From positions 672,001-736,000 of the forward strand of contig CAWAGQ010000004.1 of assembly GCA_963781585.1 (NCBI GenBank): a stretch of DNA of 64,000 nt, in the 5' to 3' direction. Below, piece after piece: positions 40,022 to 43,000 of this stretch (position 1 is its first letter; every line of letters begins with the position of its first letter). Made by a program: the position numbers. Source of the DNA: an uncultured Gemmatimonadaceae bacterium. GTDB taxonomy: Bacteria > Gemmatimonadota > Gemmatimonadetes > Gemmatimonadales > Gemmatimonadaceae.

Positions 40022-43000
40022 GCGGTGCTTGCCCATCCGGAGGGCGAGCAGTGCCTGGGCGACGGTGTTGTTGATCTTGTGTGCCCCGGTGTGATTCAGA
40101 TCCTCCCGCTTGAGCCAGACCGTGGCCCCGACCCGCCCGGAGAACCGGGGCGCGTCGCTCAGCGGCGTGGGCCGTCCCACGTAGCTGTGGAGCAGCGCGT
40201 CGAGTTCCCTCCGATACGAGTCGTCCGCCATCGCCGCGTCGAACGCCGCCTCGAGCTCATCGAGCGCGGGGATGAGCGTCTCGGGCACGTAACGCCCGCC
40301 ATACACGCCGAACCGGGTCTCGAGCATGCGCTTACCTAACGAGGGATGTCCGCGTGAACCGCCTCGACAAAAGCGCGCATCCGTGAGGGGTCCTTGACGC
40401 CGGGCCCGGCCTCCACGCCCGACGAGACATCCACCACATCGGGACCGAGGGCCGCGATCGCGCGACCCACATTGTCCGGCCGGAGACCTCCGGCGACCAC
40501 CAGCTGCGCACCGGCGCGCATCCCGGGGACCACCTCGCCCGCTCTCGCCCAGTCGAACGCCTCACCGGTGCCCCCGTTTCCCCGCGGCGAGCGGGTGTCG
40601 AGGACCACGCCGTGGGCCACCTCGAAGAGGGAGCGCGCCTCCGCCGGCACACCCTGCGACCCGATGGGCACAACCGCCCACACGATCCCACCGAAACGAG
40701 ACAGGGCCGCCGCGATCGAACCGGCTGCCACGGGTCCATGCAACTGCACGCCATCCAGACGCAGGCGTTCGGCCACTTCCACCGCCCGGTCCACTCCGTC
40801 ATCGAACACGCCGATGCAGCGCACCCCACGTTCCTGCACCGACCGCGCGATCTCCAGCGCGCGCACCTCGGACACCAGGCGGGGACTCCGGGCGAAGATG
40901 ACTCCCACGTAGCGGGCGCCAAGCTCCGCCGCCAGCTCCGCATCGACCGTGCGGGTGATTCCGCAGAACTTGATTTCAGGCACGCTGCCCCCGCCCGTGG
41001 CGGAGCACACCACAAAGGGCGCGCACCGCCTCCTCCCCGTCCGGTGCCCGCGACAGGCTCGATCCCACCAATACCGCGTCGGCTCCCAACGTCGCGGCCG
41101 CGAGCACCCCCGTCCGGCTGGTGATGCCGCTCTCGGCGACGGTCAGGCAGTGGCCCGGGACCAGAGGGACCAGTCGCTCGGGTACCCCATCGTCAATCTC
41201 GAGCGTTTCCAGGTTACGGCGGTTCACCCCGATTACCACAGCGCCCGCTTCGAGCGCCCATTCGAGTTCTGCCTCGTCACGGACCTCGAAGAGAGCCTCG
41301 ATGCCCGCCTCCGCGGCAGCGTCTGCGAGCCGGGCCGTCCTGACCGGGCCCAACGCCCGGACAATCAGGAGCAGCGCCGATGCCCCCAGCGCGCGCGCTT
41401 CCCACACCTGGGCCGCCTCGACATGGAAGTCCTTCTTGAGCACCGGCAACCGTGTCGCTCCGAGAACGGCGCGCAGGTCGTCGGTTGATCCCAGGAATTC
41501 GCTGGGCTCCGTTAGAACGGAAATGGCGGAAGCTCCTCCGGAGGTGTAGGCCAGCGCGCGCTGCCCCGGGTCCAGCGTCTCATCGAGGGGCCCCTTGGAC
41601 GGGGCCCGTCGCTTGATCTCCGCAATCACGTGCAGGGCGGTTCCCTGACGCAGGGCATCCGCCAGGGATGTTGGAGGCGCGTGAGAGAGTGCCTCCCGTC
41701 GCAACGAGGGGAGATGCGATGAGAGCGACGCGGCTCGGAGCGCCGCGCGCTCACAGAGGCGGCCCAGGACGCCGCTCGGAGGGATCCAGTGGGTCTGCGC
41801 TTGCACTTCGGGGATTCTTCGGTTATCGTGGTCTTCGGCAGTTGTTCGGGTTGCTCCTGTGATCCCGCCGCCGACACCACCAGTCGGAGTGCTCCATGCC
41901 GCTCACGAGGCGTCAACGAGAAATCCTCACGTACCTGCAGGCGTACTCGGGCGAAAACGGCTACGCCCCAAGCTTCGAGGAGATCGCGCGGCACTTCAAC
42001 TATAACTCGCTCGCTACCGTGCACGAGCATCTGAGCAACCTGGAGCGCAAGGGCTACATCAAGCGCTCTTACAATGAGAGTCGTGCCATCCAGATCCTGC
42101 CTTCCGAAGTCTTCCCGCGCGCTGTCGAGCTTCCGCTGTACGGCACGGTCGCGGCAGGTACCCCGATCGAGGCCGTCGCCGGCTCCGAAACGGTGTCGGT
42201 GCCCGAGGAATTCGCGCAACGCCGGGGTCACCATTACGTCCTGCGGGTGCGCGGGAATTCCATGATCGACGAACAGATCCGCGACGGCGACTTCGTGATC
42301 GTGAACGAGCGGCAGAGCGCGGATGAAGGGGAAATGGTGATTGCGCTGCTGAACGGATCGTCCGCGACGGTGAAGCGTTTCTTCCGCGAGCGTGACGGTC
42401 GGATCCGGCTCCAGCCCGCCAACGAGACGCTCGCGCCACTGTATGTGCACGAGAACGACATCCTGATTCAGGGAGTCGTGGTGGGCGTTATCCGGCGCTA
42501 CTGAATGTCCCGGGCGCGCGCGTAAGCGTCGCGCATGCGTTCCAGGGCAGCCTTCCCCGCCCCCTGCTCCAGCGCCTGGGTCGCGTCGTTCACGCATTGA
42601 GTGAACGGGCGACCGCGTCCGGACACGTAGAGGGCGGCGGCGGCATTGAGAATCACCGCGGCGCGCGCCGCTGGCGCCCCGTGCCCGGCCAGCACTTCAG
42701 TGATGACCTGCGCGTTGTCCGCCGGCCCGCCTCCAACCAGGTCATCGGCGGAGAAGTCGCGCATCCCGAGTTCACGCGGATCGAAAATCCACTCGGTGAC
42801 CACACCCAGGCGAACCTCGGCGATCCGGCTGGGTCCGAGTGGCGATATCTCGTCTATGCCGGGTTCGCCGAAAGCCACCAGAGCGTGGTGCGTGTCCAGG
42901 GCAGCCAGCGCACCGGCCAGCAGCGACAATCGTCGCAGCTCGGCGACGCCGACGATCTGGCGCCCGGCCCGGGCCGGATTGGCGAGTGGTCCGACGATAT

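What a model noticed while it worked through the whole genome (the two positions that open the first line are those of the whole stretch)
41800..42500. LexA (SOS) box of Gemmatimonadales: direct repeat TTCG-N7-TTCG
The SOS operator of this order is a direct repeat, consensus TTCGg-N6-TTCGG, present twice before lexA and before recA, the radical-SAM/imuA-imuB-dnaE2 cassette (both copies), gyrA and gyrB, with a variant before uvrB. No LexA motif has been described for this phylum in the papers searched.
Evidence so far: Top spaced motif among 41 repair-gene upstream regions (6 of 41 against 0.7% background, call 81). Sites at C4:713833, C4:871356, C2:148364, C6:135184, C3:40695, C16:48788/48919. 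Upstream of recA in 29 of 30 Gemmatimonadales genomes, 0 of 30 in control windows inside the gene; two sites on the same strand upstream of lexA in 25 of 25 genomes, none before the one second paralog; position 17 is G in 82 of 83 sites.
(Added by a program. Inside this text positions count along the whole contig: contig position 672,001 is position 1 of the stretch shown here. "Call 12" and the like, gene names such as g00115 and contig names such as C1 are that model's own, and its searches are not shown. The text may have been shortened before it was handed on; [...] marks where a part breaks off. The agent that wrote the report below was given it as the finding of a first reader that could run no searches.)

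Follow-up and report, generated by a model that had tools for sequence, protein, structure and literature searches.

The report
Direct-repeat LexA box of Gemmatimonadota
A short repeated DNA word in front of the DNA-damage repressor gene lexA and several repair genes is very probably that repressor's binding site in this bacterial phylum, but the same word also lies before lexA in several other phyla, so it extends a known type of site rather than being a new one.

Summary
Confirmed. Two TTCGG-N6-TTCGG repeats (41807-41822, 41834-41849) precede an intact lexA; the first fills a 17-bp gap between -35-like and -10-like hexamers. A strict TTCG-N7-TTCG lies before 91 of 93 Gemmatimonadota lexA genes, before recA in 22 of 30 genomes (17 of 18 in the order) and before 21 of 21 radical-SAM cassette genes; control windows give 0-1. 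It is wider than the order. gyrB carries it in one family (26 of 32), gyrA is not conserved (4 of 29), and the 'two cassette copies' sit on duplicated, co-binned contigs. It is not order-specific: the same repeat, in the same promoter position, precedes lexA in Patescibacteria (12 of 29) and, as TTCGC, in Acidobacteriota (14 of 28), Sumerlaeota and Binatota. Direct-repeat LexA boxes are already published for Patescibacteria and Acidobacterium (papers not readable here). Two leads: all these LexAs plus the alphaproteobacterial ones form one supported branch (99/98 on the peptidase domain alone), and Glu versus Lys at helix residue 44 tracks G versus C after TTCG. Binding is untested.

The parts
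41807..41822 (+). Operator 1, TTCGG-N6-TTCGG, filling the promoter spacer
   Evidence: the first of two sites is flanked by TTG.. and TAnnnY in 81 of 84 two-site lexA promoters, the second in 0 of 84
41834..41849 (+). Operator 2, TTCGG-N6-TTCGG, just downstream of the -10-like hexamer
   Evidence: start-to-start spacing 27 bp here, 21-37 bp in relatives
41801..41806 (+). -35-like hexamer TTGCAC (inferred); overlaps the trpC start codon on the other strand
   Evidence: only 3 of 6 to consensus and not found by the consensus scan; TTGACC/TTGACT/TTGACG at this place in relatives
41824..41829 (+). -10-like hexamer TATCGT (inferred), 17 bp after the -35-like hexamer
   Evidence: TATAAT at this place in some relatives
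41896..42504 (+). lexA, 202 aa; recognition helix SLATVHEHL (38-46), Ala87-Gly88 cleavage site, Ser122, Lys160
   Evidence: TIGR00498 192.7 bits, cut-off 110.95; positions; aligned to solved LexA chains
40976..41806 (-). trpC-like gene, divergent from lexA; starts 1 bp from operator 1
   Evidence: best TrpC models, below their cut-offs; arrangement kept in 28 of 28 own-family loci
42498..43541 (-). trpD, convergent with lexA, 7-bp overlap
   Evidence: TIGR01245 above cut-off; kept in 28 of 28 own-family loci

Best explanation
The repeat is the SOS operator of the canonical LexA. Shown: sequence, position, conservation and target set. Inferred: a LexA dimer binds two TTCG(G) half-sites 11 bp apart, one helical turn, in head-to-tail order. 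At lexA one operator covers the RNA polymerase spacer and a second the start region, giving autorepression. After DNA damage, RecA filaments trigger Ser122/Lys160 self-cleavage at Ala87-Gly88 and release lexA, recA and the radical SAM-imuA-imuB-dnaE2 cassette (core). uvrB is a patchy member, and gyrB and ruvB belong in the window's family only. The box belongs to a wide 11-bp direct-repeat family (TTCGG in class Gemmatimonadetes and Patescibacteria, TTCGC in the phylum's other class, Acidobacteriota, Sumerlaeota and Binatota, GTTC in Alphaproteobacteria).
For: lexA 91 of 93, exactly two same-strand sites in 84. recA 22 of 30, controls 0-1; found de novo from recA alone. Radical SAM 21 of 21 homologues, 12 same strand, 7 opposite, 2 both, so orientation-free like an operator. 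A matrix trained on other genomes' lexA sites ranks the cassette, gyrA, lexA, ruvB, recA and gyrB promoters at the top of the own genome; intergenic hits >=16 bits: 14 at period 11 against 0-6 at periods 9, 10, 12-14. Outside the phylum the motif follows the helix pattern [AS]T[VI]x[EK]H: 35 of 47 against 7 of 56. Base after TTCG: Glu44 genes 109 G, 3 T, 0 C; Lys44 genes 21 C, 2 T, 1 A, 0 G. The equivalent E. coli residue E45 is described as contacting bases (bioRxiv 10.1101/2020.07.14.201889, passages). imuA-imuB-dnaE2 is described as typically LexA-regulated (PMC3919608, passages).
Against: No binding or expression data. recA lacks the site in 5 of 5 genomes of the phylum's other class and has it within 300 bp in only 2 of 14 genomes of other phyla that I checked. 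uvrA (3 genes), ruvA, ssb, recG and the SRAP gene have no site in the own genome. The Glu/Lys correlation rests on one independent contrast in the tree used, and in Patescibacteria the base after the second half-site varies despite Glu. The promoter hexamers are weak and were not found by the consensus scan. Related genomes are not independent samples.
Confidence: 0.92

Rival explanations
1. Another DNA-damage regulator binds the repeat: the second LexA-like paralog, a WYL-type activator or a winged-helix regulator that prefers direct repeats.
For: Head-to-tail repeats one turn apart are typical of other winged-helix regulators (own knowledge). A paralog exists in the own genome.
Against: At E <= 1e-10 a second lexA-like match was found in only 2 of 66 sister-family genomes, and those families keep the motif. 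The paralog lacks the Ala-Gly site and the catalytic Ser/Lys words, and has no site upstream. The motif changes with LexA's own helix. A site inside the -35/-10 spacer fits repression.
Confidence: 0.05
2. The repeat is a promoter element (an alternative sigma factor site) and not an operator.
For: It sits at a fixed place in the lexA promoter and at a fixed distance before gyrB (-75 to -122 from the profile start).
Against: It occurs on either strand relative to the same gene and twice in tandem at variable spacing. At lexA it lies between, not on, the -35/-10-like hexamers.
Confidence: 0.02
3. The sites serve the divergent trpC-trpF-trpB genes (tryptophan control or translation signals).
For: trpC starts 1 bp from operator 1, and the arrangement is conserved in the class.
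Against: The same sites stand before lexA where no trpC was found next to it (the other class, 0 of 11 loci), and before recA and the cassette.
Confidence: 0.01

Closest known systems
Patescibacteria LexA box (Sanchez-Osuna, Barbe, Erill 2017, PMID 28618189; not held, not read)
   Same: PMC7739468 cites it among direct-repeat LexA motifs (passage). The supplement of PMC8565304 lists Microgenomates and Parcubacteria LexA with sites from it. In my data, named Shapirobacteria (9 of 10), Woesebacteria (1 of 1), Berkelbacteria (2 of 2) and Parcubacteria (1 of 1) have TTCG-N7-TTCG before lexA, many with the identical helix SLATVHEHL and the same promoter register; unnamed sample 12 of 29.
   Different: The published consensus could not be compared letter by letter. 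The Patescibacteria sites seen here usually come singly, and the base after the second half-site varies (C 42, G 26, T 32%). Gemmatimonadetes has two operators and G at both places.
Alphaproteobacterial SOS box GTTC-N7-GTTC
   Same: Direct repeat, 11-bp period, shared TTC core in register (PMC8565304, PMC3323433, passages). Alphaproteobacterial LexA falls on the same side of the tree.
   Different: Conserved G lies before TTC there and after it here: G before the first TTC in 14% and before the second in 40% of sites. Three alphaproteobacterial lexA promoters had GTTC-N7-GTTC and no TTCG-N7-TTCG. The helix differs (SKSGIHRL).
Acidobacterium capsulatum LexA box (Mazon et al. 2006, PMID 16549674; title seen in reference lists only; GTTC-N7-GTTC recalled)
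   Same: Direct repeat. Acidobacteriota LexAs are near relatives (up to 61% identity), and 14 of 28 have TTCG-N7-TTCG before lexA.
   Different: Acidobacteriota sites seen here mostly read TTCGC or TTCGT, with Lys (or Arg) at helix position 44; none of 28 had GTTC-N7-GTTC. A. capsulatum itself was not examined.
Gram-positive Cheo box CGAAC-N4-GTTCG
   Same: The half-site (G)TTCG is the same word (PMC3091678, passage).
   Different: Inverted there, direct here.
Balneolaeota direct-repeat LexA box
   Same: Direct repeat; regulon with lexA, recA, error-prone polymerases and a radical SAM gene, shown by EMSA (PMC7739468, passages).
   Different: Unrelated, AT-rich consensus; its LexA was not in my tree.

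Membership tests
LexA (SOS) operator | Cognate intact LexA with wHTH domain, Ala-Gly site and Ser/Lys dyad | tested here: met
LexA (SOS) operator | Sites in the lexA promoter (autoregulation) | tested here: met
   91 of 93
LexA (SOS) operator | Sites before recA and the translesion cassette, absent from controls | tested here: met
   recA 22 of 30, radical SAM 21 of 21, controls 0-1; recA not met in the other class (0 of 5)
LexA (SOS) operator | Specific binding by LexA | not testable with these tools
   needs EMSA or ChIP
LexA (SOS) operator | Damage-induced, RecA-dependent derepression | not testable with these tools
   needs expression data
Patescibacteria LexA box | Same repeat before Patescibacteria lexA, with the same recognition helix | tested here: met
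Patescibacteria LexA box | Identity with the published, validated consensus | not testable with these tools
   paper not held; no held paper printing the consensus was found
Alphaproteobacterial box GTTC-N7-GTTC | Direct repeat with 11-bp period and TTC core | tested here: met
Alphaproteobacterial box GTTC-N7-GTTC | G before TTC in both half-sites | tested here: not met
   14% and 40% of 167 sites
Alphaproteobacterial box GTTC-N7-GTTC | LexA of common descent with the alphaproteobacterial protein | tested here: inconclusive
   joint branch 99/93 and 99/98, but alpha+gamma grouping not rejected, p-AU 0.198; outgroup of 8
Gram-positive Cheo box | Inverted-repeat symmetry | tested here: not met
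   base tables show two same-direction TTCG blocks and no conserved CGAA

The most novel reading that the evidence does not exclude
Binding of an 11-bp direct repeat arose once, in an ancient LexA lineage now found in Gemmatimonadota, Acidobacteriota, Patescibacteria, Sumerlaeota, Binatota and Alphaproteobacteria, rather than several times as PMC7739468 suggests. The repeat is the Gram-positive half-site turned head-to-tail. One helix residue (Glu or Lys at 44) selects G or C after TTCG. One family has since put DNA gyrase subunit B under this repressor.
Probability: 0.35. Interest if true: 0.65.

Novelty: new member of a known kind. Interest (0 to 1): 0.42.

Why it matters
It gives a usable SOS box and core regulon for a widespread, little-cultured phylum for which no LexA motif was found in the searched literature, so regulon predictions become directly testable. 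How a two-fold symmetric LexA dimer reads a head-to-tail repeat is, to my knowledge, structurally open; this large family with a natural Glu/Lys versus G/C switch is a good system to solve it. A conserved operator before gyrB would extend SOS control to gyrase. Topoisomerase IV and III are reported regulon members (PMC8565304, PMC3323433, passages), whereas gyrB is used there as a non-inducible control.

Tried and rejected
Genome-wide enrichment of the bare pattern: none. gyrA as conserved target: rejected. ruvB beyond the own family: 0 of 21 at matrix score >=14. uvrA, ruvA, ruvC, ssb, recG, uvrD, polA, mutL and SRAP gene in the own genome: no site (genes picked with short recalled peptide motifs, and recN, dinB, radA, uvrC were not picked up, so untested). 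Two cassette copies as independent evidence: rejected. Consensus promoter scan: nothing. Single-sequence fold: pLDDT 51.7, not used. RNA data: no RNA holder listed. Test of Glu/Lys against G/C by independent pairs: one pair only, no power. First trees with long branches were replaced by a 44-row careful tree after dropping 22 of 66 rows (4 flagged as long, 18 thinned by hand). Whole-genome pattern counts in five other genomes: no clear excess over the reversed control. Literature: ten searches found no Gemmatimonadota LexA motif and no printed TTCG-N7-TTCG, CGAA-N7-CGAA, TTCGG-N6-TTCGG or CCGAA-N6-CCGAA. The library lacks most subscription papers, including the 2017 Patescibacteria paper and the other Erill/Barbe papers I asked for.

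Full report
What is there. The window holds lexA at 41896-42504 (TIGR00498, 192.7 bits against a cut-off of 111) with Ala87-Gly88, Ser122 and Lys160. Upstream are two TTCGG-N6-TTCGG repeats at 41807-41822 and 41834-41849. The first fills the 17 bp between TTGCAC and TATCGT. These hexamers are too weak for the consensus scan, but the geometry is conserved: of 84 lexA promoters with exactly two same-strand sites, 81 have TTG before and TAnnnY after the first site, and none has them around the second.

Is it more than chance? The bare pattern is not: 274 genome matches against 244-284 for comparable spacers, and 81 of 4660 predicted genes have one within 300 bp upstream (genes from my own simple caller). 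Its placement is. I examined 93 orthologous lexA upstream regions: the best-scoring loci plus 39 picked by hand across families, with 4 duplicates and 2 unpublished genomes left out. Of these, 91 have a site: 67 of 67 in the order, 15 of 15 in other families of the class, 9 of 11 in the other class. In a 30-genome panel spanning 12 families, recA has it in 22 (17 of 18 in the order, 5 of 7 class-mates, 0 of 5 other class), with 0, 0, 1 and 0 in four control windows. Counting all spaced words in the 18 order-level recA regions alone puts TTCG-N7-TTCG first, 17 of 18 against 6 of 346 controls. The radical SAM gene that heads the imuA-imuB-dnaE2 cassette in the own genome had homologues in 21 of 30 genomes, and all 21 carry the site: 12 on the same strand, 7 on the opposite strand, 2 on both (windows of 450 bp before the match, 800 bp for two). 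A matrix trained on other genomes' lexA sites ranks the cassette, gyrA, lexA, ruvB, recA and gyrB promoters at the top in the own genome; intergenic hits of at least 16 bits number 14 at period 11 and 0-6 at neighbouring periods. That matrix and the tables include four sites from two genomes marked unpublished (G075, G064); the counts do not.

Corrections. gyrA is not conserved: 4 of 29 strict, equal to the 6-base-spacer control (one truncated locus dropped). gyrB is a family trait: 7 of 9 in the own family and 0 of 8 in the sister families (two truncated loci dropped), and 19 of 23 further own-family genomes at a tight distance, controls 0 of 23 (61 searched, best 30 loci returned, 5 repeats and 2 unpublished left out). 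ruvB has it in 4 of 9 own-family genomes by matrix score and in none of 21 others. uvrB has a degenerate site in 9 of 30, controls 0. uvrA, ruvA, ssb, recG and the SRAP gene have none in the own genome. The two cassette copies lie on C2 and C6, which align over 195 kb at 90%; C5 and C8 align over 358 kb at 88%. With 7.2% contamination this points to two co-binned relatives, and the C2 copy is frameshifted.

Reach beyond the phylum. A scan of named genomes with a divergent Gemmatimonadota LexA returned Patescibacteria, Acidobacteriota, Sumerlaeota and Binatota. TTCG-N7-TTCG precedes lexA in 9 of 10 Shapirobacteria, 2 of 2 Berkelbacteria, 2 of 4 Saccharibacteria, 3 of 3 Sumerlaeota and 2 of 2 Binatota, mostly in the same promoter register and often with the identical helix SLATVHEHL. 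Records titled Gammaproteobacteria cluster with Shapirobacteria and were counted with Patescibacteria. In even samples the site was in 12 of 29 Patescibacteria (controls 0; best 30 loci of 61 genomes, one repeat dropped) and 14 of 28 Acidobacteriota, none of which had GTTC-N7-GTTC (best 30 of 61, two dropped). Against this breadth, recA carried a strict site within 300 bp in only 2 of 14 such genomes, so outside class Gemmatimonadetes only autoregulation is well supported.

How it most likely works. Shown: sequence, position, targets, orientation-independence. Inferred from established SOS biology: LexA represses from these sites until RecA-stimulated self-cleavage. That LexA itself is the binder is supported by covariation. 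Outside the phylum the site goes with the helix pattern [AS]T[VI]x[EK]H (35 of 47) and rarely without it (7 of 56), and Thermoanaerobaculia with SYGTVYKHL carry a changed second half-site. Residue 44 aligns with E. coli Glu45, described as base-contacting (bioRxiv 10.1101/2020.07.14.201889, passages). Genes with Glu44 have G after the first TTCG in 109 of 112 and never C; genes with Lys44 have C in 21 of 24 and never G. This fits Glu reading cytosine and Lys reading guanine on the opposite strand (inference). It is one independent contrast in the tree tested, so a lead only, and Patescibacteria vary at the second half-site. The paralogous lexA lacks the cleavage and catalytic words and has no site.

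Comparison with what is known. Direct-repeat LexA boxes are known: GTTC-N7-GTTC in Alphaproteobacteria (PMC8565304 and PMC3323433, passages) and a different repeat in Balneolaeota; PMC7739468 says the ability evolved independently several times, citing Verrucomicrobia, Patescibacteria and Acidobacterium papers (passages). The supplement of PMC8565304 lists Microgenomates and Parcubacteria LexA with sites from PMID 28618189, and the term Gemmatimon does not occur in it. I could not read PMID 28618189, and saw only the title of PMID 16549674. Since Microgenomates and Parcubacteria lexA promoters carry this repeat, I estimate 80% that it is the motif published in 2017. Ten searches found no Gemmatimonadota motif and no printed form of this consensus, in a library that lacks most subscription journals. 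Supplements of the unread papers and of bioRxiv preprints may bear on this.

Origin. In a careful tree of 44 LexAs (22 of 66 rows dropped: 4 long, 18 thinned), one branch (99/93) separates 36 rows from Gemmatimonadota, Acidobacteriota, motif-bearing Patescibacteria, Sumerlaeota, Binatota and Alphaproteobacteria from 8 others (Firmicutes, Collinsella, Geobacter, Gammaproteobacteria and two motif-less Patescibacteria). With the DNA-binding domain removed the branch stays at 99/98. Against: the ingroup was collected by similarity, the outgroup is small, many lineages are missing, four Acidobacteriota rows inside the branch lack the strict site, and grouping alpha with gamma is not rejected (p-AU 0.198).

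Verdict. A real and very probably functional LexA operator (0.92), new for the phylum as far as searched, but a member of a known kind and probably of an already described motif. Interest 0.42. The gyrB operator, the residue-44 code and the single-origin reading are the parts worth following.

Noticed in passing
window 39152-43541: lexA sits on the opposite strand inside a tryptophan gene run (trpD, then trpC, trpF-like and trpB-like genes), with trpC starting 1 bp from operator 1 and no strong terminator between. trpC is divergent in 28 of 28 own-family and 28 of 34 sister-family loci, trpD convergent in 28 of 28 and 12 of 18. A candidate non-contiguous operon, with the trp message running antisense through lexA.
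   Followed up: partly
L285:2184-2816 (G000:C4:196680-197315, minus strand): Second LexA-like gene just over the TIGR00498 cut-off, with a different helix and without the Ala-Gly site and catalytic Ser/Lys words; common in the own family. Possibly a non-cleavable regulator with other targets.
   Followed up: partly
G000 contigs C5/C8, C2/C6, C11/C17: Large duplicated regions at 88-91% identity (358, 195 and 62 kb aligned): the assembly probably mixes two relatives, so duplicated genes in it should be distrusted.
   Followed up: yes
L275:2547-3360 (G000:C8:5543-6360): Strong site (21.8 bits) 42 bp before a radical SAM-like gene (weak match to rSAM_mob_pairA) beside an insertion-sequence fragment: a possible mobile, LexA-controlled gene.
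   Followed up: no
L276:1494-1511 and L277:1409-1426: Sites about 270-280 bp upstream of ispG on both duplicated contigs (19.6 and 14.1 bits); conservation in other genomes not tested.
   Followed up: no
L203-L208, L212-L216 (Thermoanaerobaculia lexA promoters): Variant repeat with a changed second half-site (TTTCGC ... TTACCGC) in the same promoter register, together with helix SYGTVYKHL, plus extra TTACGC words upstream: a further candidate LexA box.
   Followed up: no
L383, L384, L386, L387, L224: LexAs with Asn in the helix (SPNAAFKHL, SLNGVYKHL, SLNSVYKHL) have a TTCAC/TACAC-type repeat in the same promoter position: another variant of the 11-bp family.
   Followed up: no
L226, L233, L237, L239, L267, L269: Records titled uncultured Gammaproteobacteria carry Shapirobacteria-like LexA and promoters; those placed in the tree cluster with Shapirobacteria, so the titles are probably wrong.
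   Followed up: partly
window 63854-63868: Intergenic strict match 226 bp before a long gene starting just beyond the window; below 12 bits in the matrix scan, probably chance.
   Followed up: partly
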